Below are positions 255 to 54,483 of a stretch of 64,000 nucleotides of DNA, piece after piece. The stretch spans positions 127,243 to 191,242 of the forward strand of contig JAZQTD010000030.1 in assembly GCA_045630455.1 (NCBI GenBank), in the 5' to 3' direction. This stretch comes from Candidatus Enterousia sp. GTDB taxonomy: Bacteria > Pseudomonadota > Alphaproteobacteria > Rs-D84. A model generated the notes under the pieces. The model was not told where the DNA came from and searched no databases. It saw only the letters and a program-made list of their open reading frames with translations. The first letter of the stretch is position 1; every line of letters begins with the position of its first letter. A program made the position numbers and the translations under genes.

Positions 255-725
255 TTATAACAAAAACGTATTTGCAAGCAAAGCCAAAATTCCACCAATT
301 ATAAAGAATGGGCCAAATGGAATGTATTTTTGTTTTTTCTTGCGTGCCCATACTATTCCGCCAATACAGGCAATAATTAATGCTAGCCCCAGTCCGTTTG
401 CGCCCAGCCACAGTCCGCCGACACTTATCAGTTTTATGTCCCCCAGACCGATTGGTGCGGTGGCGTTTGGATTTTTTTTGCGAATGTGCCAATCAAATAC
501 AAAACCCACAAATGCTGACATTAAATATCCAAAAGTCGCGCCAATCGCGGCATTAGCAATTGATACAGGCCAATCAAAAAACGCAATTAGTAATAAGCCA
601 GTAAGTATTAATGGAAACAGGTATGCGTCTGGGATAATTCTGCGACGAAAATCTGCTATGGAAATAAAGATGGCGCAAATAGATGCCCATACTAATAAAC
701 CAATAAAAAAGATATTAAAAAACAT
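255..725 (-). CDS. Prepilin (type IV / Flp) leader peptidase, A24 family (CpaA/TadV-like).
   Basis: 156-aa polytopic membrane protein with an aspartate-containing motif (ISIADFRRRIIPD) and a hydrophobic profile typical of A24 prepilin peptidases. Confidence 0.55.
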   Translation of the reverse strand: MFFNIFFIGLLVWASICAIFISIADFRRRIIPDAYLFPLILTGLLLIAFFDWPVSIANAAIGATFGYLMSAFVGFVFDWHIRKKNPNATAPIGLGDIKLISVGGLWLGANGLGLALIIACIGGIVWARKKKQKYIPFGPFFIIGGILALLANTFLL

Positions 726-796
726 ATTTTTCCCCCTTGCCTTTCGAATCGGATTGGTGCTATACTTATTCTATAATATAACAAGGGTTTTGTAAA

Positions 797-1393
797 ATGA
801 GCAAGGGTTGGGATAATTCAATGCTGAAAAAATTAAAGGCATTGACTGGTAAAGGCTTGTCAACGTCTGAAATTGGTAAGCGTTTAGGGTTTAGTAAAAA
901 CGCCATTGTGGGTAAGTTGAACCGTCTGGGTTGGAATGCTAAGGCGGGTGGTGCTGCGACTGTTGAGGTTAAAGTAAAAGATTCTAAAAAGACGGCGGAT
1001 GCGGCAAAAACGGCGACTAAAAAGCCGGTATCGCCAAAAAAAACAGCGGCTACAAAGACTGTTGCAAAAAAGGTGCCTGCAAAAAAAGAAGTAACAACTA
1101 AAAAAGTTTCAACAAAGGCTACTGTCAAAAAAGAAAGTGCTAAGAAGTCGGATGTTGTAAAAACAGAAAAAAACTCAGCGACTGCAAACGCAAAAACATT
1201 GGCAATGCATCAGCGTATTGTTCAGCATGCGTTGGAAATGGCAAACTTGAAACCAAACCAATGTCGTTGGCCAATTGGTGACCCAGATTCTGAGCATTTC
1301 CATTTTTGTGGTGAAACTGTATTCGTTGGAAAGCCTTATTGCTATGAACACTGTAAGCAGGCATATCAATTTACGCCGCCAAAGAAAAAATAA
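797..1393 (+). CDS. gcrA: Cell-cycle transcriptional regulator GcrA.
   Basis: N-terminal motif LSTSEIGKRLGFSKNAIVGKLNRLGW, a Lys/Ala-rich linker, and the conserved C-terminal box CRWPIGDPDSEHFHFCG...YCYEHC typical of alphaproteobacterial GcrA. Confidence 0.8.
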   Translation: MSKGWDNSMLKKLKALTGKGLSTSEIGKRLGFSKNAIVGKLNRLGWNAKAGGAATVEVKVKDSKKTADAAKTATKKPVSPKKTAATKTVAKKVPAKKEVTTKKVSTKATVKKESAKKSDVVKTEKNSATANAKTLAMHQRIVQHALEMANLKPNQCRWPIGDPDSEHFHFCGETVFVGKPYCYEHCKQAYQFTPPKKK

Positions 1394-1415: not shown

Positions 1416-3509
1416 ATGTCAAACGAGAGAGAGTCTTATTCAGTCTTGAATGCTAGCGATTATAACATCGCAGGGAATCTGTTGCGAGTGTTTAGCGATT
1501 CAGATGGTAGTGTTGTATTCGTACTTGATTTGATGGTTAATGAAACTAAGCCGAATGTTTTATTGATAATTAATCCAGATGATGATCGTAAGTGGGATGA
1601 TATTCTGGAAAATGATTATGGGATTGATTTAGAAACTATACGACCAAAAAAGGACAATAAATATCAAAAACTGGATATTGAATATAGTGGGTTGACCGTC
1701 TATCAAGATTTAATTAATGCGTACGTTGCAGGGGAAGATACAGCGGATAAATTGGCTTTGTTGAATGCATTTCGCAAAATAGCTGTTCGTCGTGCTGCAT
1801 CAGAACGTCTGGTTGTAGCTGAAACAGTCTCAGATAATGCGCGTGAAACAATTGATAGAGCGAACGATTCTATTGCCGAATTAAACAATCGTGTGCGTCA
1901 GTTGCGCGCTAAATTAACGGATTTGCGTAAAAATATTGGCAAAGAACCAACAAAACAATCTGCAGCCAAGATTTTGCGTACTGAATCCCAGATTGATGCA
2001 GTAAACGAAAAAATACGTCGCGCAAAAAAGCGTTTGGAAAATGCTCAAAAGCGTTTAGTTGTTGCAACCGAAGATGCAGAAAATGCGCGTGATATATTGA
2101 CCAAGATTGGGGAAAATATGGAATTACCTGCGGTAATTCAGGATATGCCACTTGTAACAATGCCAGATAATGAATTGGCAATCGTTCAAGATGCATCTGT
2201 GCCAATGGTGTATCCCAAAGAATCAGATTTAAATTTAACAATAACAAATGAAGCAAAGGCAGAATATATGGCTGACGAAGAAGTAAAACCCTTGTTTGAT
2301 ACAGACCCGGAAATTCTGGATGAAGAAATCGCGTTCAAGCCGATTGATTTCAGTGCGCCAGTGGTTGCATCTGATATGACACCAGTTCCTGTGGCAGAAC
2401 CTCAGTTGTCAGATGTGTACGAAGAAACACCTGTGGTGGCGCCGATATCGTTTACACCGCCGGTTGTCGAAGAGACGTACCAAGAAACAGATGTCCTGCC
2501 AAGTCAGGTTAAATCTGGCACAACGCCGATGCTGGATTCTATCACGTCTGTGGAAACACCAATCGGGATGGATGTTGTCGAACAGCAACAGACGGAGTTT
2601 ATTCCACAGCCGGTTGTGCCATCGTATGCGCCAGTTTTGGAGTCAAACCCAGAACCAGGTATAGTACAAGCATCGACTGATTCTGGATTTAGACCTGTGT
2701 CCCCATTGACGGGTGTTGCGCCAGTTGCGGTGGCTGATGCCCCAAAGCGCAAACAAAGTGTAGTTTATTACATAATGCTGGTTGCGTTGATTGTGATGTC
2801 TATATTTGTGCTATGGTTCTATCAGAAGACGACTGGTGGAAATGCAGTGCCAAATATTGGTGATGCCGTTATGCCAGAAGCGCTTGTGTCTGCAGAACCC
2901 GAAGAAGTCGCAGAACCAGAACCTGTTGTAGAAGAGGTTCTTGTGACAGAAATCGAAGAACCAGAACCTGTTGTAGAAGAGCCCGTGGTGGTTGAGCCTG
3001 TTGTACAGCCAGAGCCAGAACCTGAGCCAATGCCAGAACCCGTTGTGATAGAGGCTGAACCTGTGGTGGTCGAACCAACGGAAATTGTTGTTCCTGTGAC
3101 TGCGCCGGTGATAAATACTGTGCCGACCGTCGTCCCAGAACCAGAAGTTGTACAAGTAGTCGAGACCGAAGAAGAAATCTTGGCAAAAAAGCCTGCGTAT
3201 GGCGTTTCCCAGAAAGAAGCGATGTTTGTGGCGGATGACAAATTTGAAACAGACAGATTGGCGGCTGATACGAAGGTCGATATGTATGATACTCCGATTG
3301 TTCGTGTTCAAGATACGACACCAGTGATACAATATCAAGAGCCAGAAATTATCGAAGAATTTATAGGAGAAGATGTCCCAGCCTGTGAAGGTGGCGCATC
3401 ACCTGATCGATTTGGCTGCTGTCCGGGGGAATCATATACCCAGATTGATAATGGTGGATTTGTGTGCTGCCCAGATGCGGGTGGCGATTGTTTCCCGCCG
3501 TTGTTCTAA
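1416..3509 (+). CDS. Hypothetical bitopic membrane protein: N-terminal coiled-coil, one TM helix, a Pro/Glu/Val-rich repeat linker, and a C-terminal Cys-rich domain.
   Basis: 697-aa ORF. Coiled-coil-like region around aa 130-230. TM helix VVYYIMLVALIVMSIFVLWFY. Repeats of the form EPEPVVEE. C-terminus CEGGASPDRFGCCPGESYTQIDNGGFVCCPDAGGDCFPPLF. Tandem 42-bp DNA repeats around 2914-2984. Confidence 0.6.
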   Translation: MSNERESYSVLNASDYNIAGNLLRVFSDSDGSVVFVLDLMVNETKPNVLLIINPDDDRKWDDILENDYGIDLETIRPKKDNKYQKLDIEYSGLTVYQDLINAYVAGEDTADKLALLNAFRKIAVRRAASERLVVAETVSDNARETIDRANDSIAELNNRVRQLRAKLTDLRKNIGKEPTKQSAAKILRTESQIDAVNEKIRRAKKRLENAQKRLVVATEDAENARDILTKIGENMELPAVIQDMPLVTMPDNELAIVQDASVPMVYPKESDLNLTITNEAKAEYMADEEVKPLFDTDPEILDEEIAFKPIDFSAPVVASDMTPVPVAEPQLSDVYEETPVVAPISFTPPVVEETYQETDVLPSQVKSGTTPMLDSITSVETPIGMDVVEQQQTEFIPQPVVPSYAPVLESNPEPGIVQASTDSGFRPVSPLTGVAPVAVADAPKRKQSVVYYIMLVALIVMSIFVLWFYQKTTGGNAVPNIGDAVMPEALVSAEPEEVAEPEPVVEEVLVTEIEEPEPVVEEPVVVEPVVQPEPEPEPMPEPVVIEAEPVVVEPTEIVVPVTAPVINTVPTVVPEPEVVQVVETEEEILAKKPAYGVSQKEAMFVADDKFETDRLAADTKVDMYDTPIVRVQDTTPVIQYQEPEIIEEFIGEDVPACEGGASPDRFGCCPGESYTQIDNGGFVCCPDAGGDCFPPLF

Positions 3510-3514
3510 AATAA

Positions 3515-3541
3515 AAAGACCGCCAATGGCGGTTTTTTATT
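3515..3541. terminator. Bidirectional intrinsic terminator between the convergent 1416..3509 ORF and adk.
   Basis: GACCGCCAATGGCGGTT hairpin flanked by A/T runs on both sides. Confidence 0.55.
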
Positions 3542-3542
3542 A

Positions 3543-4106
3543 TTAATCCAGAGCTTTTACAATTCGAGCAAAGTTGGCGGATTCTTCTTCGGATGAATCT
3601 ATGTCCGAAAATACAATACCACCTGCCCCGCTAAGCCACCGGATTGCTGGCATGGTTATTTCGTGAAAGTTTTCAATACGATGATGAACTGTCTTGGTGG
3701 TGGCATCATCGGTGCGGGTTGAACCCTCGGCCTTGCGCTTATTAATGCGTTTAACCATTATATCATCCGACACATTTAGATATATGATGTGAATATCGTA
3801 TTTATCTGCATAATTTTTGACCAGCCATTGCGCCTGAATCAACGTGCGTGGAAACCCATCCAGAATTATATTGTTTGGGGTTTGTGCCAATGTATCCGCA
3901 ACCAAATCACAAACCGTATTATCAGGAATTAAGTTGCCATCCGCAATAATTTTGCAGATTTGTGAGCCGTCTGGCTGGGCACGCAGGATTGCGCCAACCT
4001 CGATATGTGTATAGTTCGGGCGCATATCGCGCAGCATACGGGAAAAAGTCCCCTTGCCCGTACCGGGGCCGCCCATCATAACAATCATTTGTTTTTTATC
4101 TGTCAT
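3543..4106 (-). CDS. adk: Adenylate kinase, short form.
   Basis: P-loop GGPGTGKGT, NMP-binding region, and overall adenylate kinase architecture; 187 aa. Confidence 0.8.
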   Translation of the reverse strand: MTDKKQMIVMMGGPGTGKGTFSRMLRDMRPNYTHIEVGAILRAQPDGSQICKIIADGNLIPDNTVCDLVADTLAQTPNNIILDGFPRTLIQAQWLVKNYADKYDIHIIYLNVSDDIMVKRINKRKAEGSTRTDDATTKTVHHRIENFHEITMPAIRWLSGAGGIVFSDIDSSEEESANFARIVKALD

Positions 4107-6054: not shown

Positions 6055-6510
6055 TTATTTAATCTTTTGTTGCGCCTTTTGTAACAGTTCTAGTGTACGT
6101 TCTGGATACAGTTTGAATGCGTTAATTGGCGTACCAGATATTGCACTGTTGTGATATACACCCATGATACGAGACTGTTGTAACAAAGCCGTGTTTTTTA
6201 TATTGCCACGAGTGTCAATTATACCGTTAATGTTGTCTGTACGAAAAGACCAGGCCAAATCCATAACTAAACTGTGATTGACGCGATCGTCCAAGTCGTA
6301 CTTTGTGTGAATCTTGTTATATTCTGGCAAGTCATGAAAATTCGTCCCCATGTACGACATATATTCACGTGATGCACCAGAAAAAATATAGTCCTGGGCG
6401 GCCAGTGCAGAACGGTGAATCAGATTTGCGTGTTTTGCAAAAAATGCAGGATTCACAACCGCTAAACATAATTCACGTAGCTTAAAAATTGGTGCCAGTT
6501 CTGTGTTCAT
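6055..6510 (-). CDS. Hypothetical protein.
   Basis: 151-aa ORF lying 15 nt downstream of, and likely co-transcribed with, the methyltransferase-like gene. A hairpin terminator overlaps its stop (CCCACCATTCGGTGGG). Confidence 0.45.
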   Translation of the reverse strand: MNTELAPIFKLRELCLAVVNPAFFAKHANLIHRSALAAQDYIFSGASREYMSYMGTNFHDLPEYNKIHTKYDLDDRVNHSLVMDLAWSFRTDNINGIIDTRGNIKNTALLQQSRIMGVYHNSAISGTPINAFKLYPERTLELLQKAQQKIK

Positions 6511-6525
6511 TGTTTTGTCCTTTTA

Positions 6526-7221
6526 TTATCTTTGCCTTTTTATATGGTCGTTTAATGCTTGTTTAGTTTTAGGGTTCTTCGGTGCCGTCCATTTTTCCCA
6601 ATGGCGTGATTCTGAGTCCAGTGTAGAATCGTGAGTGACCATATGGTGTGGTGGCAGTGTATATGGTAAAGAAAAGCTTTCTTCAATCTTCATATCCAGA
6701 ACTATGAAATTCATTTTGTCACGAACAAAATGTACTGGTGCCAGCAATGCGCCATTAACCCATTTAGGATGCCCCCCAACACGCAATGTGCCTCCAGGTT
6801 TCAAAGCAATCGCCGCACGTCTGTAAAAGTTGACGGCGTGCTGCCAATCAGGTGAATATAATGGCAACGAATATAGTGCCCAAATTTCATCAAATTCGTT
6901 TTCAAATGCTGTGTTAACGAAATCACTGTTTATGACTGTGCGTGCTGAACCAGAATCGTTAATAAATGGGTCAACGTTTGTGACGTCGCAATTAATCTTA
7001 GCAAAATCCAGGCTGCGTTGAATCTGGGAACGACCACCTCCCACCAGTAATAATTTTTTATTGTGCAACAGTTTTTTTATATCTCGATGAGAAATCTGGA
7101 ATATCTTCATGTATGTCAACAGTGAGCGTGCAGTTGTGACACACCCACCCCTGTTAAAGAAGGATGACATTTTATCAAAATCTGTTTTTTGCCAATACAT
7201 AGCGGAGTTATTATAGGACAA
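6526..7221 (-). CDS. Class I SAM-dependent methyltransferase-like protein.
   Basis: Motif I-like LLLVGGGRS, post-I acidic NCDVTNVDP, and motif II-like DEIWALYSLP; 231 aa. Confidence 0.45.
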   Translation of the reverse strand: MSYNNSAMYWQKTDFDKMSSFFNRGGCVTTARSLLTYMKIFQISHRDIKKLLHNKKLLLVGGGRSQIQRSLDFAKINCDVTNVDPFINDSGSARTVINSDFVNTAFENEFDEIWALYSLPLYSPDWQHAVNFYRRAAIALKPGGTLRVGGHPKWVNGALLAPVHFVRDKMNFIVLDMKIEESFSLPYTLPPHHMVTHDSTLDSESRHWEKWTAPKNPKTKQALNDHIKRQR

Positions 7222-9635: not shown

Positions 9636-9662
9636 ATAAAAAAATCCCCAAATTGGGGATTT
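9636..9662 (-). terminator. Intrinsic terminator after the histidine kinase gene.
   Basis: ATCCCCAATTTGGGGAT hairpin followed by a T-run, read on the minus strand. Confidence 0.5.
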
Positions 9663-10942
9663 TATATTGGTAACGTAATGCGGACACGCAGACCGCCCAA
9701 ATCACTGTTTTCTAAAAACATTTGACCGCCATGGTTCTCGAACGCTGTTTGGGCAATAGATAGTCCCAGCCCTGTACCACCAGTGTCTGTGCCGCGGGCA
9801 TCGTCCAGACGCACAAATGGTCGCATTGCATCTTTCTTTTTATCATCTGGAATGCCTGGGCCGTCGTCTTCGACAATGACTTCTACGTGATCTTCGAAAT
9901 CTTGCTCAGATATTTTTATGGTCGTTCGGGCATAACGTGCCGCGTTTTCAATAATGTTCGCAAATGCACGTGCCAGTGCCATTGGACGGGCATAGAACTG
10001 TATTGGATTGTCTGGAAAATCTGTAATAATTTTCTTGTCAGGTGCTGCGTCGCGTACGGTGCGTGTTAAAATTGGTGGTAATTCTGTTGCCTGCTCTATT
10101 TCTGGCATTTCGCCCCGCGCGAACGCCAGATAACCGTTTACCATTTCTGTCATACGGTCTATGTCGCGTATCAGGTCGGCATCCGTTGCCCCGCCCGTCT
10201 CTATATTCAGACGCATACGAGTCAGTGGTGCTTTTAGGTCGTGACTGACCGCATTAAGCATATCTGTACGTGTGCGATTGTAACGATTTAGGCGTTCTTT
10301 CATTGTTATCATCGCAGCGGCGGCTTCGCGGATTTCCTTAGATCCAGTTGGTTTGAATCCAGGTGCATCCAGACCGCGACCAAAACGCCCCGCAGCACGT
10401 GCAATGCGCTTGATGCTGCGTGTGTGCATAATAATAAACGGTGCAACCAATATTGATACGATTATCATCGCACCAATCAACCACAATATAAATACTTCGG
10501 TGCTGGTCGAATAAATGCGATACAAAGACGTACCGAATGTTGCAATCTGGTTGTCGCGAGTAGGAATATCAATAAATACCAAGCGTTTGCTTTTGTCCAT
10601 ATATATACTGGCGGGTCGTTTTAGCAGTTTGGATAACTCGAATGCCAGTTGCCCTGTTTCGGTAGCGTTATTGTCATCGCGTTTTGGTCGGTTCAAACTG
10701 GGGTTGATAGAAACATTTATACCTATATCGCGTGCCATTTGCTGGGCAGAATCCATATTGCCACTGTCCATAAAGTTCATCATTGTGGCAACTTCGCCTG
10801 CCAGTGTGCGTGCCAACGTATTGTGGACGCGTGACCAGTGGTTGCCAAAAAATGCGTTAGCAACAATTACCTGGGCAATAACCAAGGGAATTAAAATCAT
10901 TAAAATTGTACGGGCCAAGAAACTGCGTGGTGTTAATCTCAT
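9662..10942 (-). CDS. Sensor histidine kinase (HAMP, HisKA, HATPase domains).
   Basis: Two TM segments. H-box SHDLKAPLTRM. N, G1 and G2 boxes (NIIENAARYA; DDGPGIP; GGTGLGLSI). Overlaps the response-regulator gene by 4 nt. Confidence 0.8.
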   Translation of the reverse strand: MRLTPRSFLARTILMILIPLVIAQVIVANAFFGNHWSRVHNTLARTLAGEVATMMNFMDSGNMDSAQQMARDIGINVSINPSLNRPKRDDNNATETGQLAFELSKLLKRPASIYMDKSKRLVFIDIPTRDNQIATFGTSLYRIYSTSTEVFILWLIGAMIIVSILVAPFIIMHTRSIKRIARAAGRFGRGLDAPGFKPTGSKEIREAAAAMITMKERLNRYNRTRTDMLNAVSHDLKAPLTRMRLNIETGGATDADLIRDIDRMTEMVNGYLAFARGEMPEIEQATELPPILTRTVRDAAPDKKIITDFPDNPIQFYARPMALARAFANIIENAARYARTTIKISEQDFEDHVEVIVEDDGPGIPDDKKKDAMRPFVRLDDARGTDTGGTGLGLSIAQTAFENHGGQMFLENSDLGGLRVRITLPI

Positions 10943-11589
10943 TTTTCGTCTCTGTTGTTGGCGACAGTGTCTATTAGTTTATATCCACGGCCGCGAATTG
11001 TTATAATGTCTATGTTAGATAATACTATATTTAATTTGCCACGCAAGCGTTTTGCAACCATTGGTGCCGCAGGTGCAATATTGCCAATTGGATGTGTTAA
11101 TGTATACAGTAACTTCTTTTCTTCGCCAGATAGCGCAAGTAAAAGTGATGTACCATCATGATTTACAAAAAATTCTTTGTCGGCGTATGCCAGGCCAATG
11201 GGCATAATGGAATTAATGCTGGTGCCGCGATTGCGCATTATGTTGTTCAAACGCAAGATCAATTCGCGCATTTGGAATGGCTTGCCTAGATAATCGTCAG
11301 CACCACTGGACAGACCATCGATTGTATTTTCTGTGCCTGTCATCGCAGTAAGCATCAGTACGGGTGTCGTATCGCCATTTTTACGTAGTTGCTGAAGCAG
11401 TGTCAGACCGTCCATACCCGTCATCATACGGTCCAGAATAATCGCGTCAACCGCCATACGTGACAGCATGTCTGTTGCAACTTCTGCGGACTGGGCGGTT
11501 AAAACGTTGAAGTTTTCGGTGCGTAACCCGCGAGCTAACGCCCCACGCAACACATCATCGTCATCAATAATAAGAATGGTTTTGTTCAT
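10939..11589 (-). CDS. OmpR-family response regulator.
   Basis: Receiver domain with IIDDDD and the phospho-acceptor Asp in ILDRMMTGMDG, plus a winged-helix C-terminus with ITIRGRGYKL. Confidence 0.85.
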   Translation of the reverse strand: MNKTILIIDDDDVLRGALARGLRTENFNVLTAQSAEVATDMLSRMAVDAIILDRMMTGMDGLTLLQQLRKNGDTTPVLMLTAMTGTENTIDGLSSGADDYLGKPFQMRELILRLNNIMRNRGTSINSIMPIGLAYADKEFFVNHDGTSLLLALSGEEKKLLYTLTHPIGNIAPAAPMVAKRLRGKLNIVLSNIDIITIRGRGYKLIDTVANNRDEK

Positions 11590-11646: not shown

Positions 11647-12570
11647 TTATTTGTCCAATGGCTCAACCGCATATTCGCCTGGCTGAATCATCATATATGG
11701 ACTGTTAGCGCCGTTGTTGCTGTCTTCGCCCAACAAAGATGCGCGGAATTTCATGCCGCTGGTTGTAAACTCTGTTTTGAAAAGCGCGTATCCAGTGCCA
11801 CCACCGGTTGTAGGACCTTGCATTCCCAGTGAATAATATCCACCCAAGATGCCATAGTCCAAGTCGATATAGTCTAGACTGACAATTAAAGATACACTGC
11901 TGATGCCGTCGCTGGTCATATTGCACGCAAATTCACGGTTGGACAATACTGCCTCTGAATTAGCGGGGACCATTAAGTCCATAACAGTTGGTTCGCACAC
12001 ACGGTCGATACCGTTTACCAAGAAATCATATGTCATACCAACGGTTGCTTTGGATAGACCTGTTGAAACGCTGACCTGGGAAATCGTGGCCTTTGGTATT
12101 TTGACCATTGCGTTGGCAATGCCACTGCGAACAGGGAAAGAAATTCCAGACTGTAAGCAATCTCGTGAGAATGGGTCGGCTTCGCATATATAAAGGCGCG
12201 AATGTGCGTTCATCATAAACATATTTGCCAGACTGTTGAACAAGAATGTACGTGTAATACGGTCGTTCAGACGTGTGCAACCAAAATTGCGGCAAATAAC
12301 CATTGGGCGATTTGCAAACATAACACCAGGGTGTGCGGCCTCTTCTGCGGCGCGAGCATCCATAATATTCTGGTCATAGTCCAGGCTGTCTGCGCGATTC
12401 ATAAATTCTGTTTCTGGGATAAAATTAGGGTCGTCTGGGTACGCATAGTACGACTGAACCGGCGTTTCAGTGTAAATCGTTTGAAAATTATCCATTACAA
12501 TATCAGTGTTCGCGTACGCGTTTGGTGCGACTAAACCTAATAAGAAACCAGTTAAAAAGAGTCTTTTCAT
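11647..12570 (-). CDS. Secreted hypothetical protein.
   Basis: Signal peptide MKRLFLTGFLLGLVAPNAYA; 307 aa with several Cys; no recognised domain. Confidence 0.5.
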   Translation of the reverse strand: MKRLFLTGFLLGLVAPNAYANTDIVMDNFQTIYTETPVQSYYAYPDDPNFIPETEFMNRADSLDYDQNIMDARAAEEAAHPGVMFANRPMVICRNFGCTRLNDRITRTFLFNSLANMFMMNAHSRLYICEADPFSRDCLQSGISFPVRSGIANAMVKIPKATISQVSVSTGLSKATVGMTYDFLVNGIDRVCEPTVMDLMVPANSEAVLSNREFACNMTSDGISSVSLIVSLDYIDLDYGILGGYYSLGMQGPTTGGGTGYALFKTEFTTSGMKFRASLLGEDSNNGANSPYMMIQPGEYAVEPLDK

Positions 12571-15256: not shown

Positions 15257-15655
15257 ATGTCCAGACTAAGACGCAGAAATAATGACTCTTCGATTCAATT
15301 AACGCCGATGATTGACGTTATGACGGTGTTGTTAGCGGTGTTTATGGTGACAACCCCGATGATGACGACTGGAATTGATTTGAATTTGCCGCGTGCGGGG
15401 GCTTCGGCTATGACGGGGGCAGATCACGCAATTCAAATTAGTGTGGACAAAGGCGGCAATTATTATCTGTCTGAAATGAAATTGTCACGCGATGAAATTG
15501 TAAAGCGTGCCATCGCGATGCGCAGCGAAAATCCTCAGTTGACGATTATGATAAGTGGTGATGCGGCTGCTGATTATGGTGCGGTTATGTCAATGATGGG
15601 TAAATTAAAAGACGCAGGTTTCCAGAAAGTTGGTCTGCGCACACAACCAGAATAA
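15257..15655 (+). CDS. tolR: TolR/ExbD.
   Basis: Single TM segment LTPMIDVMTVLLAVFMV with a biopolymer-transport ExbD/TolR periplasmic domain. Confidence 0.75.
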   Translation: MSRLRRRNNDSSIQLTPMIDVMTVLLAVFMVTTPMMTTGIDLNLPRAGASAMTGADHAIQISVDKGGNYYLSEMKLSRDEIVKRAIAMRSENPQLTIMISGDAAADYGAVMSMMGKLKDAGFQKVGLRTQPE

Positions 15656-16429
15656 TTGAACATTATGAAAGATAAGTATTTTAATCTTGAAAATATTTTA
15701 ATGTCTGTTGGTGGGCATTTGGTTGTGCTGGCAATTTTGGTGACGTCTGCAACAATTATTCTGAACCGTGCACAACTGATTACACCCGACAGGATTGAGA
15801 TAATAGAGATAGATTTAAATAATATCAAAATATCTGGTGATGAAACAAAATTGCAAAACGCAAATGCAGATGTTGCACCCGAAAAAGTCAAAGAAGAAAA
15901 GCCAGAACCTAAACCAAAGCCAGAGCCTGAAAAAGTAGAAGAAAAACCAATAGAAGAACCAACATTGGTTGAAGAGCCAGAACCAGAGCCTGAGCCCGAA
16001 AAGAAAGAGGAAAAAAAGCCAGAACCAGTCGAAGAGAAAAAGGTTGAGCCAGCACCTGCCCCGAAAAAGAAACGCGTTGTTCGTGTTAATCGAGAAGTGA
16101 TGAGCTTAGACAGGACTATGACTGTGTCGGTTGTTGATGCGCTACGTGTCGCGATGACTCGATGCTGGGTAATTGATACAACGCGCAATGATATTAGTGA
16201 TATTCGTGCAGTTGCACATTTGACTATGCGTTCTAATGGTACGGTGCGTGATGTTTGGTTTGAGTCCGAGGCACGCGCGGAAACAGACCCTGCATTTGCG
16301 TATGTATTGGAAACAATTCGTGATGCGATTAACACGTGCCAGCCATTAAATATGCTGCCCAAGAATGAATATAGCAAATGGGAAAAAATTCAATTAACAT
16401 TCTATCCAACCAGTGGTAAGGTTATGTAA
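15656..16429 (+). CDS. tolA: TolA-like protein.
   Basis: N-terminal TM anchor, a Lys/Glu/Pro-rich extended helical region (KPEPKPKPEPEKVEEKP...), and a C-terminal globular domain. Confidence 0.6.
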   Translation: MNIMKDKYFNLENILMSVGGHLVVLAILVTSATIILNRAQLITPDRIEIIEIDLNNIKISGDETKLQNANADVAPEKVKEEKPEPKPKPEPEKVEEKPIEEPTLVEEPEPEPEPEKKEEKKPEPVEEKKVEPAPAPKKKRVVRVNREVMSLDRTMTVSVVDALRVAMTRCWVIDTTRNDISDIRAVAHLTMRSNGTVRDVWFESEARAETDPAFAYVLETIRDAINTCQPLNMLPKNEYSKWEKIQLTFYPTSGKVM

Positions 16430-16469
16430 CACAAAGCCCGCGGGAGAGAGAATAACCAAAGGCAACACA

Positions 16470-17576
16470 ATGAAAAAATATTATTCTGAAAATTGGTATC
16501 AAGCAACTGACAAGTTTGTAAAAAATGCTGCAAATTTTAGTGATGTAAAGTGGTGTGTTGCAGACAATCATCAATTTGATATTCCGTATGTTTTGATTGG
16601 TGACGGACCAAACAAGATTGTTATAAATTCTGGTGTCCATGGGATTGAGGGCTATTTCGGCAGTGCAGCGCAAAATATGTTTTTGGATAAATTTGCGTGC
16701 AACTTATCACCCGAATTTTTGAAAAAGTATACAGTGTGCTTGATTCATATTATCAATGGTTGGGGAATGCAGAATCGTATGCGCGAAGTATTTGATACAA
16801 CACGTGGTGGCTTGGTAGATTTGAACCGTAATTTTGGTGTAGATTTTTCATCGCCAGATAAATTGCCACAAAATCCAAAGTATGAATTGGCGCACGATTT
16901 GTTGTTGTCAAAACCAGATGCGGTTAATAAAAAGAATGCTATAAAAGCATTTCGTGCAGAACATTTACACGATGGCGCGTGGGATGCGATAAGTTTTGGA
17001 CAATATACACACCCGTACGGCTTGTTTTATGGTGGTGCAGCACCAATGATTGAAAATAAAATGACTTTACATATTTATGACGATATTATGCGCGATGCAA
17101 AATCGTTAACTTCAATTGGTTTACATACTGGCTTAGGGCGTTTTGATAGAAAACGTGGGCGTGTAACAAGACAGTTGCTGGTGTCGCATCCGGCATCTCA
17201 TAAAAACACAGATTATTTTGCGGATATGCTGGTTGGAACCGCGGTTGTTTCAGACGAACGCGCTGTTAATGGCCCTGTGTTGTTGGGGGATTTGGTTGAT
17301 TGTTTAGAGGCGCGATATGGCACGAAAGAAATCCCAGTTTATACAGCCGATTTTGAAATCGGTACAGGTGAATTTCCAATTATGTCCCCTATTTACAAGC
17401 GTATGGATATGGGGGATGCACGATATGATTTGTTGAATCGTGGCGCAATTAGTCCACAAACACTGCAAAACTTAACAGAAAGTTGGTATCCGTCTGATCC
17501 AAAATGGCGTGATGCAGCACTGGATGGGGCAAACGTTTTATTTGCAGAGTTGATTAATGGGCATAAGCAACGATAA
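16470..17576 (+). CDS. M14 (zinc carboxypeptidase / succinylglutamate desuccinylase)-like protein in the position usually occupied by tolB.
   Basis: SGVHGIEG motif typical of M14-fold zinc hydrolases; start placed at MKKYYSENWYQ. Confidence 0.4.
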   Translation: MKKYYSENWYQATDKFVKNAANFSDVKWCVADNHQFDIPYVLIGDGPNKIVINSGVHGIEGYFGSAAQNMFLDKFACNLSPEFLKKYTVCLIHIINGWGMQNRMREVFDTTRGGLVDLNRNFGVDFSSPDKLPQNPKYELAHDLLLSKPDAVNKKNAIKAFRAEHLHDGAWDAISFGQYTHPYGLFYGGAAPMIENKMTLHIYDDIMRDAKSLTSIGLHTGLGRFDRKRGRVTRQLLVSHPASHKNTDYFADMLVGTAVVSDERAVNGPVLLGDLVDCLEARYGTKEIPVYTADFEIGTGEFPIMSPIYKRMDMGDARYDLLNRGAISPQTLQNLTESWYPSDPKWRDAALDGANVLFAELINGHKQR

Positions 17577-24494: not shown

Positions 24495-25412
24495 ATGAAA
24501 CATATACCTGTATTATTGAATGCGGTGCTGGATGCCTTGGGGGATATTCGAGGACTGCATATTGTGGACTGCACATTTGGTGCGGGTGGATATACGCGTG
24601 CATTTTTAGAGCGTGGAGCGCGTGTGACTGCGTTTGACCGCGATCCAAATGTCTTGGTTGATGTTGATGCGGTGCGTGCGGAATATGGCGACAGATTTAA
24701 CTTTATACCACGTGCGTTTTCGGCACTGAGGGAATTAGACGAGCGGTTTGATGCGATTGTGTTCGATCTGGGGATTTCGTCTATGCAGATAGACAATGGG
24801 GAACGTGGATTTTCTTTCCGTATGGATGCGCCATTGGATATGCGTATGGATAACAGAGAGAATGAGCAAAGAGCAAATAGCAAAGAGCAAATATTGACGG
24901 CTGCTCAATTGATAGAAAATTTGTCTGTTGTGGAACTGGCAACGATTTTACGCGACTATGGTGATGTGCGTAATGCGATGGGGGTTGCGCGGGCAATAAA
25001 AAATGCAGCACCCAAAACTACGTTTGAATTGCGTGATTTGATACATAATCCAAAGGATGTTGCACCGATATTTCAAGCGCTGCGCATTGCGGTTAATGAT
25101 GAGATGGGTGAAATCGAACTCGCTTTGGCGACTGTACCAGAACACTTAACCGATGGTGGCAAATGTATTTGTGTGACATTCCATTCAATCGAAGACCGAA
25201 TTGTAAAAAATACTTTTCGTGATTGGACAATTGCGCCCGGCGATCCAAGAATGCCAACGGTGGCGGCTGCGCCATTTGTATTAATAAAAACCGCCCTGCC
25301 CGATGAAGCGGAACTGGAAAATAATCCTCGCGCGCGGTCTGCGCATATGCGTGGTGTGATAAAAACAGCCCGAAAAGGGGGAATGGAATATGAAAAAGTC
25401 TGTAACAGATAA
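24495..25412 (+). CDS. rsmH: 16S rRNA m4C1402 methyltransferase RsmH (MraW).
   Basis: HIPVLL start, VDCTFGAGGY SAM-binding motif, FDLGISSMQ. Confidence 0.85.
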   Translation: MKHIPVLLNAVLDALGDIRGLHIVDCTFGAGGYTRAFLERGARVTAFDRDPNVLVDVDAVRAEYGDRFNFIPRAFSALRELDERFDAIVFDLGISSMQIDNGERGFSFRMDAPLDMRMDNRENEQRANSKEQILTAAQLIENLSVVELATILRDYGDVRNAMGVARAIKNAAPKTTFELRDLIHNPKDVAPIFQALRIAVNDEMGEIELALATVPEHLTDGGKCICVTFHSIEDRIVKNTFRDWTIAPGDPRMPTVAAAPFVLIKTALPDEAELENNPRARSAHMRGVIKTARKGGMEYEKVCNR

Positions 25413-25770
25413 AGTTATTCAGGCAGACAATGCCAAAAAGGTTAATCCGCGTGATTTATCAAGTGACCAAGATTTAACGATTGGTTTGATGAATTTGATT
25501 GCGATTGAAAATATTGTCTCAGGCAGTCAAATTGCTGAAATGGTCGCGAAGGTTCGTGAAAAGTTGATGTCACGGGTGGTTCTGGATATTAAGTTGATGA
25601 ACGAATCCTATAAAATGCTGGGGCGTGCGATGGCGTTGATTAATGATGGGATGCGCGCGTTACCAGATACCAGTCTGGCATATAAGCATTTTGATTCTGC
25701 GTACGTAATGTATTCTATGTTTTGGGGACTGAATATGGGATTTGTAAAAATTGAAGATATTTATAAATAA
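25390..25770 (+). CDS. Hypothetical protein (126 aa) overlapping the rsmH 3' end.
   Basis: ATG preceded by an AAGGGGGAA Shine-Dalgarno site; not a membrane protein, so unlikely to be ftsL. Confidence 0.4.
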   Translation: MKKSVTDKVIQADNAKKVNPRDLSSDQDLTIGLMNLIAIENIVSGSQIAEMVAKVREKLMSRVVLDIKLMNESYKMLGRAMALINDGMRALPDTSLAYKHFDSAYVMYSMFWGLNMGFVKIEDIYK

Positions 25771-25837
25771 GGTGTTGATTCAAATGTCAAAAAAATGTTA
25801 AAATATCTTTAAGAGAGAAGTGAAAGTGAAGAGTCCT

Positions 25838-52557: not shown

Positions 52558-54483
52558 ATGGAATTCAATCAATTGGTTATGTGGGGCGGCGCAATATTGG
52601 GCGGACTATTGTTTATCACACTAATGGTGCTGTTTTTTGTATCGCGCAAATCACAAAAAGTGATGCAGTCGCTGCTGGACATTATGCTGCAACCAGAGCG
52701 CGCTAAAATTACCGATGCAACACGCGTATTAAGCACAATTCTAAAAGACGAAATCAGCAAGATTGAATCCAGCTTTGTCACAATGCGTAATACACTAAAC
52801 GCACAAATCGCGTCTGCAAAAGAGCTGCAACACATACTAGATGAACAGAATGAAAAATTAATATCACTGGCCGATGAGGCAACCAAAAAAATATCAAATA
52901 TGTCGGGCAGATTAGACAATACTGTACACGGATTAAACGATGTGGTAGAGTCTGAAAAGTGGCACGATGTAGAAATCGCAACTGACAAATTTAGCAATAC
53001 TGTCAATCAGTTATTGAATGAAATTAACAACACAACTGAAGAAACCGCAAACCGCACCGCCCAGATACAATCACAAATTGTTTCATGGGTTGCGACCAGT
53101 GAAAGTTTATCGGAACACTTGGGGGCCGAATTCAATAAAAACACCGAACAGATGAAAAATCTGACTGGCGAATCTGAAACTATGATAGGCAAGATTTCAG
53201 AACTGGCACAGTCAACCGCAGATGGTTTCAGCAACGTTAAAAGTTCTGCAGTTAACTATGAAGAAATAATGATACGCAATGACAGACTGTTGGACGGATA
53301 TCTGGACAAGATGGATACATTTAGCAAGCAGTCCAAGAAACAATTAACTAGCCAGATGAATACACTGACCAATACAGCCAATGTTGTTGGGGGTCAGGTG
53401 CGCCTGGCTGAATCATCAATAGATAAACAAATCAAAAAATTAACCGATGCGGTTGAAAAGCTGATGGCATCCGCTACAGAAACCGAAGGGGCAGTACGTG
53501 GCATATCAGGCGAAATCGCGACACTGACCAAGCATTTTGATGGTGAAATCAAAGAATTTGCAACTGGTGTTGTATCAGAACTGAAAACCGTTTCTGGGGT
53601 TGCTAATATCACACTGGAAAACACACGTGGTGCGGCGAATGCGTTTTCAGACTCGGTCAAAGCAATGGCGACTGGCGTGCGCGAAACACTTATCGAAATG
53701 AATACAGCGCATACACAACTGTCTGGACAGTCTGAAAACCTGATTAAAATGTCAGCCGAGACAACCGCCCAGTTGCAACCGCTGTCAGAACTTATTGAAA
53801 AATATTATGCTGCCCTGCCCGATTTGAGTAAAGACTCGGTCGAGACAAGTGAAAAGCTGGAAAAGATTGTCGCAAGCCTGACAGAAAAAGTTAACCAGAT
53901 GAAGGCGGCCGTCAACGAATCTACGAATGCAGTATCTGAATCCGCTATTAAACTGGAAGATTTGGCCGGCACGTCACGCCAGCAAATGATTGATTTGATG
54001 TCTGATTATGCTAAAGCCGTGAATACAATGCAGACGCTGAACAAGCAAATGATGGTGGCACGCGCAACCGCACCAATGGATGCAATCAAGGCCGCACCTG
54101 CGGAATCTTTTGGCAAAATTAGCTCTGCTGACTTTTTAGCGCAAGCAGAAAAGATGTTTGAAAAGTTGCACGAACAGTCACAAGACCTGACCCGGGCGAC
54201 CGGTGCTGATATACCAGACGTAGTGCTGAATAAATATCATGCAGGCGACAAAACTATATTCTCTAAGTGGCTGGCTAAAATGATGAATGCAGCAGACAAA
54301 AAACAAATCCGCAGTATGATTAAGTCTGATGCAGTTTTCCGTTCCCAGGCAACACAATTCATGCGCAGTTTCGACAAAATTATGAATGGCGCACGCGAAG
54401 CGGATAATTCGGATAAACTGATGACGACACTGCTTAAAACTGATTTGGGACAGATATACACAGCACTTAAAAACAATATGTAA
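52558..54483 (+). CDS. Membrane-anchored, long alpha-helical/coiled-coil protein.
   Basis: N-terminal TM GGAILGGLLFITLMVLFFV, then about 600 aa that are Gln/Glu/Thr/Ala-rich with heptad-like periodicity; no enzymatic motif. Confidence 0.55.
   Translation: MEFNQLVMWGGAILGGLLFITLMVLFFVSRKSQKVMQSLLDIMLQPERAKITDATRVLSTILKDEISKIESSFVTMRNTLNAQIASAKELQHILDEQNEKLISLADEATKKISNMSGRLDNTVHGLNDVVESEKWHDVEIATDKFSNTVNQLLNEINNTTEETANRTAQIQSQIVSWVATSESLSEHLGAEFNKNTEQMKNLTGESETMIGKISELAQSTADGFSNVKSSAVNYEEIMIRNDRLLDGYLDKMDTFSKQSKKQLTSQMNTLTNTANVVGGQVRLAESSIDKQIKKLTDAVEKLMASATETEGAVRGISGEIATLTKHFDGEIKEFATGVVSELKTVSGVANITLENTRGAANAFSDSVKAMATGVRETLIEMNTAHTQLSGQSENLIKMSAETTAQLQPLSELIEKYYAALPDLSKDSVETSEKLEKIVASLTEKVNQMKAAVNESTNAVSESAIKLEDLAGTSRQQMIDLMSDYAKAVNTMQTLNKQMMVARATAPMDAIKAAPAESFGKISSADFLAQAEKMFEKLHEQSQDLTRATGADIPDVVLNKYHAGDKTIFSKWLAKMMNAADKKQIRSMIKSDAVFRSQATQFMRSFDKIMNGAREADNSDKLMTTLLKTDLGQIYTALKNNM

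What the first reader, a model, noticed from the sequence alone, without database searches (positions are those of the whole stretch)
1416..3509. Bitopic membrane protein next to gcrA with tandem Pro/Glu repeats and a Cys-rich C-terminal module
A 697-aa protein with a cytoplasmic N-terminal globular plus coiled-coil region, a single TM helix, a periplasmic Pro/Glu/Val-rich extended region like TonB/TolA (encoded by tandem 42-bp repeats near 2914-2984, EPEPVVEE), and a C-terminal 6-Cys motif CEGG...GCCPGE...VCCPDAGGDC. It sits immediately downstream of the cell-cycle regulator gcrA, separated by 22 nt, and is convergent with adk. Not recognisable as any known family. The architecture suggests an envelope-spanning signalling or tethering protein.
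Basis: seen in the sequence. Interest (0 to 1): 0.55.

Follow-up and report, generated by a model that had tools for sequence, protein, structure and literature searches.

The report
Orphan envelope-spanning protein co-transcribed with gcrA
This gene encodes a membrane protein of no known family, found only in one order of small-genome gut alphaproteobacteria, that always sits in an operon with the cell-cycle regulator gcrA and probably acts as a scaffold linking the cytoplasm to the outer cell envelope; its function has not been tested.

Summary
One detail is wrong: the repeat is two 34-nt copies 45 nt apart, not a 42-bp tandem array.

The organism is a Candidatus Enterousia / order Rs-D84 gut alphaproteobacterium. 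The protein belongs to a closed family: about 240 representatives among 1.84 billion proteins, with no Pfam, NCBIfam, PHROG, PDB or Foldseek relative.

AlphaFold2 predicts these parts in order:
- a confident cytoplasmic alpha/beta head with no structural match, plus a fixed-length basic helical hairpin with an invariant tip
- a ~210-aa acidic disordered tether carrying conserved short motifs
- one TM helix with a conserved face
- an acidic Pro/Val/Glu periplasmic spacer
- a confidently folded 6-Cys cap

The cap is exchangeable and is replaced by other tails in distant members.

The order A24 peptidase(-) / gcrA(+) / target(+) occurs in 84 of 84 loci, with a median gcrA-target gap of about 21 nt, while the downstream linkage varies. 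The gcrA promoter is conserved. In 83 of 84 loci it carries CGAWTCG about 25 nt upstream of the predicted start, matching the Caulobacter GcrA/CcrM consensus YGAKTCK.

Best reading: an order-specific trans-envelope scaffold or tether expressed with GcrA. The function is inferred. Interest is moderate.

The parts
1416..3509 (+). Whole ORF, 697 aa: an order-specific orphan bitopic membrane protein
   Evidence: The ORF is listed. Full-length homologues number 786+ clusters, all annotated 'hypothetical'. The family is closed in the profile search.
1443..1730 (+). Cytoplasmic N-terminal alpha/beta head domain (aa ~10-105). Conserved block: KPNVLL..RKWDDIL.NDYGVDLETVRPKKDNKYQKLDIEYSGL
   Evidence: AF2 pLDDT is about 90-96. 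Invariant residues are listed. No Foldseek hit reached E<=1e-3 in PDB or BFVD.
1743..2114 (+). Basic antiparallel two-helix hairpin (H110-172 and H179-233) of fixed length (125-127 aa across the family)
   Evidence: From AF2. Length constancy and net charge +9 are. Only sub-threshold coiled-coil Pfam hits were found.
1932..1979 (+). Hairpin tip motif IGKEPTKQSAAKILR (aa 173-188), nearly invariant
   Evidence: Column frequencies: G175 0.98, K180 0.98, S182 0.97, A183 1.00, I186 0.97, L187 1.00.
2121..2750 (+). Acidic disordered cytoplasmic tether (aa 236-445) carrying conserved short linear motifs
   Evidence: AF2 pLDDT is below 50 over most of it. Its sub-regions (aa 236-425) sum to a net charge of -31, and linker length and sequence vary.
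2256..2351 (+). Most conserved linear motif, aa 281-312: K-x-E-x-MADEEVKPLFDxDPEILDEEIAFKPIxF
   Evidence: Mean identity to the reference is 70%, the highest of any region. P292, P298, A306, F307 and P309 are invariant in 61 sequences. AF2 shows a small pLDDT bump to ~58.
2691..2714 (+). Membrane-proximal cytoplasmic motif RPVSPxTG (aa 426-433)
   Evidence: Column frequencies: R426 0.89, P427 0.98, P430 0.90.
2757..2825 (+). Single transmembrane helix (aa 448-470), YYxxLxxLIxLSxFTLWLYQ, with one conserved helical face
   Evidence: Kyte-Doolittle peak and AF2 helix 448-471. L455, L458 and L466 are invariant. The conservation helical moment at 100 degrees was reached by 0.3% of shuffles.
2826..3173 (+). 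Periplasmic acidic Pro/Val/Glu-rich spacer (aa 471-586), variable in length (72-209 aa) and sequence
   Evidence: Composition and length range are. AF2 predicts it as disordered.
2903..2981 (+). Two 34-nt direct repeats (2903-2936 and 2948-2981, 45 nt apart) encoding E(V/I)(A/E)EPEPVVEE
   Evidence: Reported by the repeat finder, 94% identity. Tandem Repeats Finder does not call it.
3189..3233 (+). Conserved periplasmic linear motif KPAYxVSQxExMFVA (aa 592-606). Recognisable relatives of it appear in several tails that lack the Cys cap.
   Evidence: The motif is visible in the tails of members without the module (P0238, P0240, P0216, P0225).
3384..3506 (+). C-terminal 6-Cys cap (aa 657-697): C-x9-10-GCCxGE-x11-16-CC-x4-9-C-[FY]-x-P-[LMI]
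   Evidence: AF2 pLDDT is ~90 with a beta-hairpin at 672-676 and 682-686. Invariant Cys are shown. It is present in 39 of 61 aligned members. No PDB profile hit at E<=10. Pfam Granulin matched only 2 of 27 members, best E=0.08.
797..1393 (+). gcrA, the first gene of the predicted two-gene operon
   Evidence: PF07750 at 97 bits against a cutoff of 26.9. It lies directly upstream of the target in 84 of 84 loci. The median gap is 21.5 nt.
737..766 (+). Conserved sigma-70-type promoter of gcrA: -35 TTGCCT (737-742), CGAATCG (745-751, GANTC at 746-750), extended -10 TGcTATACT (758-766)
   Evidence: The promoter scan found it and the sequence is. GANTC sits at the same position in 83 of 84 loci. The 7-mer is always CGAWTCG, with the centre base flipping (35 T, 33 A). 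It matches the YGAKTCK consensus of PMC4647560.
3514..3538 (.). Bidirectional intrinsic-terminator-like hairpin shared by the target and adk
   Evidence: Terminator scan: an 11-bp stem plus a T-run on the + strand, with a mirror site on the - strand.
255..725 (-). Divergently transcribed A24 (prepilin-peptidase-type) aspartyl protease gene, part of the conserved gene trio
   Evidence: PF01478, E=2.9e-13. It is present and divergent from gcrA in 84 of 84 loci. Read directly from the sequence: it contains the ADF...IPD and GLGD motifs.

Best explanation
The ORF encodes a lineage-restricted bitopic inner-membrane protein of order Rs-D84 / Candidatus Enterousia. It most likely works as a trans-envelope scaffold or tether whose production is coupled to the GcrA cell-cycle circuit.

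Shown here:
- (1) The protein has one TM helix at aa 448-470.
- (2) The N-terminal 235 aa fold confidently into an alpha/beta head with no structural match, plus a fixed-length basic helical hairpin with an invariant tip.
- (3) About 210 aa of acidic disorder join the head to the membrane and carry strongly conserved short motifs.
- (4) The TM helix has a conserved face.
- (5) The C-terminal side is an acidic Pro/Val/Glu spacer with one conserved motif and an exchangeable cap, a small 6-Cys fold in this genome.
- (6) The gene lies 9-29 nt downstream of gcrA in nearly all relatives. No promoter or terminator was predicted in between.
- (7) The gcrA promoter carries a conserved CGAWTCG site.

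Inferred:
- The topology is N-in, C-out.
- gcrA and the target are co-transcribed, and transcription responds to GcrA and GANTC methylation.
- The TM face docks to a specific membrane partner.
- The spacer spans the periplasm, so the KPxYNVS motif and the cap can contact peptidoglycan or an outer-membrane partner.
- The head, hairpin tip and acidic motifs recruit cytoplasmic partners.

In function it would resemble landmark or tether proteins such as PodJ, RodZ, MapZ or TolA, without being related to any of them.
For: - Architecture.
- Conserved TM face: (0.3% of shuffles reach the observed moment).
- Fixed hairpin length against variable linkers.
- Closed family with no catalytic or transport domain.
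- No structural relative.
- Exchangeable cap with a retained core.
- The A24 / gcrA / target order holds in 84 of 84 loci, including termite-gut members at ~37% identity, while the adk/rpsA side is variable or absent.
- Median gcrA-target gap of 21.5 nt.
- No terminator in the gap, and a terminator after the target.
- Promoter with CGAWTCG in 83 of 84 loci. This matches the Caulobacter GcrA consensus. In Caulobacter, GcrA-regulated promoters have one class of methylation sites centred near -20 (PMC4647560).
- The lineage has ~0.75-1.0 Mb genomes (PMC12306168). Retention in 274 GTDB species genomes therefore argues for an important role.
Against: - No experiment, expression data or interaction data exist.
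- No partner has been identified.
- Topology rests on the positive-inside rule, the absence of an N-terminal signal peptide and the CC-pair cysteines. It has not been measured.
- Synteny within one order of compact genomes can persist without any functional link.
- This genome is full of orphan ORFs, so being an orphan is not special here.
- GANTC methylation and a ccrM gene were not demonstrated for this lineage. No ccrM lies in the 64-kb window, and GANTC is not depleted in it (213 observed, 172 expected).
- AlphaFold DB was not searchable, so a structural relative among cellular proteins cannot be excluded.
Confidence: 0.4

Rival explanations
1. The protein is a membrane-anchored modulator of GcrA, working like an anti-sigma factor. 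Its cytoplasmic head, hairpin or acidic tether would bind GcrA, or the GcrA-sigma70 interface, and hold it at the membrane. The periplasmic part would sense envelope status. Release would adjust GcrA-dependent transcription.
For: - It lies immediately downstream of its putative partner in the same predicted operon in 84 of 84 loci. This is the arrangement typical of sigma/anti-sigma pairs such as rpoE-rseA (established knowledge).
- It has the N-in bitopic topology.
- GcrA in this lineage has a Lys/Ala-rich, histone-H1-like linker (Pfam HC2 E=1.8e-4, NCBIfam H1-like E=8.8e-5). The target's tether sub-regions (aa 236-425) sum to a net charge of -31, which gives charge complementarity.
- The operon promoter has a GcrA-type site, consistent with an autoregulatory loop.
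Against: - No anti-sigma domain was detected.
- No test of binding was possible.
- At 697 aa with about 450 cytoplasmic residues, it is far larger than needed for sequestration.
- GcrA homologues work without such a partner in all other alphaproteobacteria, since the family is absent outside this order.
Confidence: 0.15
2. The linkage to gcrA is incidental. The protein would be a general envelope structural or spacer protein of this lineage, for example one that sets periplasmic width or anchors the outer membrane, with no cell-cycle role. Synteny would persist only because these compact genomes rearrange little at this spot.
For: - All relatives come from one order.
- The genomes are small and densely coding, with 81-94% of sequence coding (PMC12306168).
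- The periplasmic Pro/Glu/Val rod and variable cap fit a structural spacer.
Against: - The downstream side of the same gene has been rearranged repeatedly, with adk 0.03-5 kb away or absent. The upstream junction stays at 9-29 nt in 77 of 84 loci.
- The largest and best-conserved parts are cytoplasmic (head, hairpin tip, acidic motif). A periplasmic spacer would not need them.
Confidence: 0.2
3. The protein is a TonB/TolA-type energy transducer. A TM helix coupled to a proton-motive-force-driven motor would transmit force through a rigid Pro-rich periplasmic rod to an outer-membrane partner.
For: - It has an acidic Pro/Glu/Val-rich periplasmic spacer of ~116 aa.
- The TM helix has a conserved face, suggesting a specific membrane partner.
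- A conserved periplasmic linear motif (KPxYNVS..MFV) could pair by beta-strand addition. That pairing mode is an inference.
Against: - No TonB_C or TolA domain was detected.
- The TM is at aa 448, not at the N-terminus.
- About 450 cytoplasmic residues have no counterpart in TonB or TolA.
- The TM lacks the SHLS-type His of TonB and TolA (sequence; the comparison rests on established knowledge).
- No exbBD or tolQR genes lie nearby in the window or flanks.
Confidence: 0.05
4. The protein is a component of a cell-cell interaction or attachment apparatus of a partner-dependent bacterium. The fast-evolving outer part and exchangeable cap would engage a host or partner-derived structure.
For: - Rs-D84 bacteria are predicted to be obligate symbionts or parasites, with many unexplained membrane proteins proposed to mediate interactions (PMC12306168).
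- The cap is modular and lineage-variable.
- The spacer and linkers evolve quickly.
Against: - The protein is anchored in the inner membrane of a diderm. lpxA- and lpxB-type genes lie nearby in relatives.
- It has no feature for crossing the outer membrane.
- The most constrained parts are cytoplasmic.
Confidence: 0.1

Closest known systems
PodJ (Caulobacter polar organelle development protein)
   Same: Both are N-in bitopic proteins with a cytoplasmic coiled-coil region followed by a disordered stretch, one TM and a periplasmic part. podJ is listed among GcrA targets in Caulobacter (PMC4647560). The remaining PodJ features are from established knowledge.
   Different: No sequence relationship: the profile search found nothing outside the family. 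No Sel1/TPR or peptidoglycan-binding domain was detected in the periplasmic part. The head domain has no structural match. The target is co-transcribed with gcrA rather than being a distant regulon member.
TonB / TolA periplasm-spanning proteins
   Same: Both have a Pro/Glu-rich extended periplasmic segment long enough to span the periplasm, and a TM helix that probably docks to a membrane partner.
   Different: In the target the TM is not N-terminal and a large cytoplasmic domain is present. It has no TonB_C or TolA_C domain and no adjacent exbBD or tolQR genes.
RseA-type membrane anti-sigma factors
   Same: In both cases the gene lies directly downstream of a transcription-factor gene in one operon. 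Both have N-in single-pass topology, with a cytoplasmic binding region and a periplasmic sensing region.
   Different: No anti-sigma domain was detected. The upstream gene encodes a sigma-70 cofactor, not a sigma factor. The target is three to four times larger.
RodZ / MapZ-type bitopic morphogenetic landmarks
   Same: Both have a cytoplasmic N-terminal folded domain, a single TM, a Pro-rich or disordered extracytoplasmic linker and a small C-terminal folded domain (established knowledge for RodZ and MapZ; for the target).
   Different: No HTH (RodZ) or MapZ domains were detected. The helical hairpin and the ~210-aa acidic tether have no counterpart.
Granulin-type CC-ladder mini-domains
   Same: Both have paired cysteines (CC...CC) around a beta-hairpin. 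AF2 predicts a confident hairpin fold.
   Different: The target has 6 Cys rather than 12. Pfam Granulin matched only 2 of 27 members at E>=0.08, and there was no PDB profile hit. This is a resemblance only.

Membership tests
TonB | C-terminal TonB_C domain (PF03544) | tested here: not met
   Pfam and NCBIfam scans at E<=1 returned only sub-threshold coiled-coil hits in aa 82-248.
TonB | N-terminal signal-anchor TM with a short cytoplasmic N-terminus | tested here: not met
   The only hydrophobic segment is at aa 448-470.
TonB | Pro-rich periplasmic spacer | tested here: met
   aa 471-586 are 19% Pro, 25% Glu+Asp and 27% Val, and are predicted to be disordered.
TonB | ExbB/ExbD motor partner | not tested
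   The window ORFs scanned against Pfam and the flank genes with precomputed Pfam gave no such hit. The whole genome was not available.
TolA | N-terminal TM, long helical periplasmic domain II and a TolA C-terminal domain | tested here: not met
   The helical hairpin lies on the N-terminal (cytoplasmic) side of the TM. No TolA domain hit was found.
PodJ | Sequence homology to PodJ | tested here: not met
   A profile of aa 1-245 against 1.84e9 representatives returned 240 hits at E<=1e-3, of which 235 were at E<=1e-10. All of the 150 listed match across essentially the whole profile. No PodJ sequence was compared directly.
PodJ | Periplasmic Sel1/TPR repeats and a peptidoglycan-binding domain | tested here: not met
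   No Pfam hit was found in aa 471-697.
PodJ | N-in bitopic topology with a cytoplasmic coiled coil and a disordered region | tested here: met
   AF2 and hydropathy support it. This is an architectural resemblance only.
RseA-type anti-sigma factor | Recognisable anti-sigma domain (RseA_N or zf-HC2) | tested here: not met
   No such hit appeared in the Pfam or NCBIfam scans of the protein, or in the Pfam scan of 24 family members.
RseA-type anti-sigma factor | Encoded directly downstream of its partner regulator in one operon | tested here: met
   gcrA lies upstream in 84 of 84 loci, with a median gap of 21.5 nt.
RseA-type anti-sigma factor | Physical binding to the partner regulator | not testable with these tools
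   No multimer prediction or interaction data were available.
RodZ | N-terminal cytoplasmic HTH domain and C-terminal DUF4115 | tested here: not met
   Neither was hit. The AF2 head is an alpha/beta domain, not an HTH.
Granulin | 12-Cys granulin module matching PF00396 | tested here: not met
   The module has 6 Cys. PF00396 matched 2 of 27 members, best E=0.08, and there was no PDB profile hit.
GcrA/CcrM-controlled promoters (as defined in Caulobacter) | GANTC with YGAKTCK flanks, close to the -35/-10 region of a sigma-70 promoter | tested here: met
   CGAATCG lies at 745-751, between TTGCCT (737-742) and TGcTATACT (758-766). It sits at the same position in 83 of 84 loci. The consensus and site positions come from PMC4647560.
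GcrA/CcrM-controlled promoters (as defined in Caulobacter) | The site is N6-adenine methylated by CcrM, and transcription depends on GcrA | not testable with these tools
   No ccrM lies in the 64-kb window. No methylome or expression data were available.

The most novel reading that the evidence does not exclude
The strictly conserved trio (A24 aspartyl protease, GcrA, tether) is one regulatory module. The tether would hold GcrA, or another cytoplasmic factor, at the membrane. The neighbouring A24-type intramembrane protease has no pilin substrate in sight, and no type IV pilus genes were reported for this lineage. It would cleave the tether to release the cytoplasmic head. That would couple envelope or partner-contact signals to the methylation-dependent GcrA cell-cycle programme, and would be a new use of a prepilin-peptidase-family enzyme in regulated intramembrane proteolysis.
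Probability: 0.05. Interest if true: 0.8.

Novelty: new variant of a known kind. Interest (0 to 1): 0.4.

Why it matters
GcrA/CcrM cell-cycle control has been studied mainly in free-living model alphaproteobacteria.

This locus shows three things about an uncultured gut lineage with ~0.9-Mb genomes:
- It keeps gcrA.
- It drives gcrA from a promoter with a consensus methylation site.
- It has welded gcrA to a large membrane protein found nowhere else.

If the protein is a cell-cycle-coupled envelope scaffold or a GcrA modulator, it would show how a minimal alphaproteobacterial cell cycle connects to envelope growth or partner contact. It would also add a new folded domain and a new small disulfide module to the catalogue.

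If the linkage is only positional, this is one more lineage-specific envelope protein of unknown function.

Tried and rejected
- Pfam, NCBIfam and PHROG scans of the protein gave only sub-threshold coiled-coil-type matches over the hairpin region (HrpB7, ATG16, Snapin, SMC/Rad50, tape-measure). I treated these as compositional. A Pfam scan of 24 members one by one gave the same result.
- PDB sequence-profile searches found nothing meaningful, either with the full-length alignment or with the Cys module.
- Foldseek found no hit at E<=1e-3 with the N-terminal model against PDB or BFVD, or with the full-length model against PDB. The best matches were generic helical hairpins: colicin E3/E9 receptor-binding domain, AhlC, PI3K p85 iSH2, SMC arms and YscO. 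The p85 nSH2+iSH2 matches had TM ~0.35 and rmsd ~18 Å, so I rejected them.
- The idea of a granulin relationship for the Cys module was not supported.
- I looked for distant relatives outside the order with a profile search of 1.84e9 representatives and with a second search seeded from the most divergent member. None were found.
- I searched all six frames of the window and 85 loci for the Cys module in other ORFs. It occurs only in this gene.
- I searched for prepilin-like (class III signal) small ORFs near the A24 peptidase and found none. By inspection, the target's pre-TM region lacks the G/xxxxE prepilin cleavage motif.
- No repeat-number polymorphism was seen in the one 99%-identical relative.
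- A mirror-tree co-evolution test of GcrA against the target was considered and not run. All three syntenic genes share one phylogeny, so the result would not discriminate.
- GANTC depletion, as a proxy for CcrM activity, is not seen in the window. This is uninformative.
Full report
**Observation**

The ORF 1416..3509(+) encodes 697 aa. The gene upstream, 797..1393(+), is GcrA (PF07750, 97 bits against a cutoff of 26.9), and its stop codon is 22 nt from the target ATG. adk (3543..4106, -) converges on the target, and the two share a terminator-like inverted repeat at 3514-3538 that was called on both strands. Upstream of gcrA and divergent from it lies an A24 prepilin-peptidase-type gene (255..725, -).

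One hydrophobic segment exists, at aa 448-470. The segment after it is 19% Pro, 25% Glu+Asp and 27% Val. Six cysteines lie in the last 41 residues.

The reported '42-bp tandem repeat' is really two 34-nt copies (2903-2936 and 2948-2981, 94% identical) spaced 45 nt apart, plus degenerate copies. Tandem Repeats Finder does not call it. A 99%-identical relative has the same length.

**Who has it**

The window carries an alpha-type tmRNA. Homologues are all unnamed proteins from gut metagenome-assembled genomes labelled Alphaproteobacteria or Candidatus Enterousia. GTDB places Enterousia in order Rs-D84, whose genomes are about 0.75-1.0 Mb and are predicted to be partner-dependent (PMC12306168).

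- 274 GTDB species genomes encode a relative.
- A profile of aa 1-245, read against 1.84 billion representative proteins, returned only 240 hits at E<=1e-3. Of these, 235 were at E<=1e-10.
- A second search seeded from the most divergent member found only 142 proteins, and the 120 listed are of similar length.

The family is therefore closed, with no detectable relatives elsewhere.

**Anatomy**

A 61-sequence alignment and two AlphaFold2 runs give a consistent picture.

| Region (aa) | Feature | Evidence |
|---|---|---|
| 10-105 | alpha/beta head, pLDDT above 90 | |
| 110-233 | Two ~55-60-residue helices forming an antiparallel hairpin. Length is fixed at 125-127 aa across the family and net charge is +9. 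The tip IGKEPTKQSAAKILR is nearly invariant. | |
| 236-445 | Predicted disordered; its sub-regions (aa 236-425) sum to a net charge of -31. It carries the most conserved stretch of the protein, MADEEVKPLFDxDPEILDEEIAFKPIxF (70% mean identity), and the motif RPVSPxTG. | |
| 448-470 | TM helix, YYxxLxxLIxLSxFTLWLYQ. Conservation is concentrated on one helical face; 0.3% of shuffles reach the observed moment. | |
| 471-586 | Acidic Pro/Val/Glu spacer, variable in length (72-209 aa) | |
| 592-606 | Conserved motif KPAYxVSQxExMFVA | |
| 657-697 | 6-Cys cap, pLDDT ~90, predicted as a beta-hairpin | |

The cap is not universal. It is present in 39 of 61 aligned members. The others end in HDGGQYSxxYxETxY, EEAAYQAGDDGYDEY or acidic/Tyr-rich tails. 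The invariant core is therefore the cytoplasmic head, the hairpin tip, the acidic motif and the TM. The outer end is modular.

**Comparison with known families**

- Pfam, NCBIfam and PHROG scans give only sub-threshold coiled-coil-type matches over the hairpin.
- PDB sequence profiles give nothing.
- Foldseek against PDB and BFVD gives no hit at E<=1e-3. It returns only generic helical hairpins: colicin E3/E9 receptor-binding domain, AhlC, p85 iSH2, SMC arms and YscO.
- The Cys cap draws a faint Granulin signal in 2 of 27 members, best E=0.08. I do not accept this as membership.
- The protein fails the defining features of TonB, TolA, PodJ, RodZ and RseA-type anti-sigma factors. It shares only general architecture with them.

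**Linkage to gcrA**

In all 80 GTDB loci, and in four further loci from divergent termite-gut relatives, the order is A24 peptidase(-), gcrA(+), target(+). The gcrA-target gap is 9-29 nt in 77 of 84 loci, with a median of 21.5 nt.

On the other side, adk and rpsA lie anywhere from 33 nt to more than 5 kb away or are absent from the flank, and other genes take their place. This gives an internal control: the region does rearrange, but the gcrA-target junction does not. No promoter-like or terminator-like site falls in the gap.

**The promoter**

The 71-nt A24-gcrA intergenic region contains a sigma-70-type promoter: TTGCCT (737-742), then a 15-nt stretch that contains CGAATCG (745-751), then TGcTATACT (758-766). 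This block is conserved across the whole family.

- A GANTC sits at the same place in 83 of 84 loci. The exception has a 5-nt deletion there.
- The 7-mer is always CGAWTCG. The central base flips between A and T about equally (33 and 35), so one strand or the other always reads CGATTCG.
- This fits the Caulobacter GcrA recognition consensus YGAKTCK (best form TGATTCG).
- If the -10 hexamer occupies -12 to -7, the site is centred near -25. This is close to the class of methylation sites 'centred around -20' in GcrA-regulated promoters (PMC4647560).

I infer that the gcrA-target operon is itself under GcrA and methylation control. Methylation and a ccrM gene were not shown, and no ccrM lies in this 64-kb window.

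**Mechanism**

The best-supported reading (confidence 0.4) is a trans-envelope scaffold or tether made together with GcrA.

- The conserved TM face implies a specific membrane partner.
- The acidic Pro/Val/Glu segment is long enough to cross the periplasm. It would present the KPxYNVS motif and the cap to peptidoglycan or to an outer-membrane partner.
- On the cytoplasmic side, a rigid basic hairpin with an invariant tip and several conserved linear motifs look like docking sites for soluble partners.
- No catalytic or transport domain is present.

Rival readings:

| Rival | Confidence |
|---|---|
| Anti-sigma-like membrane modulator of GcrA | 0.15 |
| Structural envelope protein whose gcrA linkage is incidental | 0.20 |
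| Cell-contact apparatus component | 0.10 |
| TonB/TolA-type transducer | 0.05 |

The most novel reading not excluded (about 0.05) treats the conserved trio as a regulated-proteolysis module. In it, the A24 aspartyl protease would cleave the tether. No pilin substrate is evident nearby, and no pilus genes were reported for Rs-D84.

**Verdict**

The gene belongs to an order-specific orphan family whose head fold and Cys cap have no match in the libraries searched. It is tightly and non-trivially linked to gcrA and to a conserved methylation-site promoter.

It is a new, unrelated example of a familiar kind of protein, the bitopic envelope-spanning scaffold. Its function is unknown and only inferred. 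Many other ORFs in this genome are also orphans, which tempers the surprise. Interest is moderate, at 0.4.

Noticed in passing
window 737-766 (and the same position in L001-L084): The gcrA promoter is almost invariant across the family (CCCCCTTGCCTTTCGAWTCGgaacTaTGCTAcAaT). It carries a GANTC site that matches the Caulobacter GcrA consensus YGAKTCK. The central base flips between A and T about 50:50, so the motif is kept in either orientation.
   Followed up: yes
window 255-725 (-): An A24 prepilin-peptidase-type gene (156 aa) is divergent from gcrA in 84 of 84 loci. Both Asp motifs (ADF..IPD and GLGD) are visible. No prepilin-like ORF lies nearby, and a published survey of three reduced-genome gut lineages reports type IV pili only for UBA9783, not for Rs-D84. 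Its substrate is unexplained.
   Followed up: partly
window 797-1393 (+), aa ~50-140: GcrA in this lineage has a Lys/Ala/Thr-rich, histone-H1-like linker (Pfam HC2 E=1.8e-4; NCBIfam H1-like E=8.8e-5) between the DNA-binding and sigma-binding domains.
   Followed up: no
window 24495-28162 (+): rsmH/mraW (24495-25412) is followed by a 126-aa ORF and then a 780-aa ORF with no Pfam hit. The 780-aa ORF has a signal-anchor-like N-terminus and 28 Cys. It sits where ftsL and ftsI would be expected in a dcw cluster.
   Followed up: partly
window 31822-34683 (+); 52558-54483 (+); 6055-7221 (-); 11647-12570 (-); 15574-16377 (-): Several further ORFs (953, 641, 151, 231, 307 and 267 aa) have no Pfam family at E<=0.01, or only sub-threshold matches. 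The genome is rich in lineage-specific proteins.
   Followed up: partly
window 54669-55328 (+): A 219-aa protein has an Mtd_N (major tropism determinant N-terminal) domain (PF18454, E=1.3e-7) and a PHROG tail-protein hit (E=5e-7). It could be a phage-derived or diversity-generating-retroelement-type target protein.
   Followed up: no
window 9662-11589 (-): A HisKA/HATPase histidine kinase and a receiver-domain response regulator form a pair about 6 kb from the gcrA operon. Their identity (for example CtrA/CckA-type or other) was not determined.
   Followed up: no
window 16413-17576 (+); L081/L082 149-1258: A DUF2817 protein lies about 13 kb from the target here. One also lies about 5 kb upstream of the target homologue in termite-gut loci.
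   Followed up: no
L085 12399-22082: In one relative (the contig carrying P0010), the gene after the target encodes a protein of 4073 aa that runs over the end of the locus and has no Pfam hit on record.
   Followed up: no
P0087; L056; P0246: Some public records carrying this protein are labelled 'Microviridae sp.', 'Bacteroides fragilis' or 'Bacteroidia bacterium'. The contigs reach tens to hundreds of kb and carry gcrA, so these labels are probably binning or annotation errors.
   Followed up: partly
window 2250-3500: GC content rises to 0.47-0.50 in the 3' half of the gene, against 0.38-0.43 for the neighbouring DNA. Pro, Glu, Val and Ala codon usage in the disordered regions probably accounts for it, rather than foreign origin.
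   Followed up: partly
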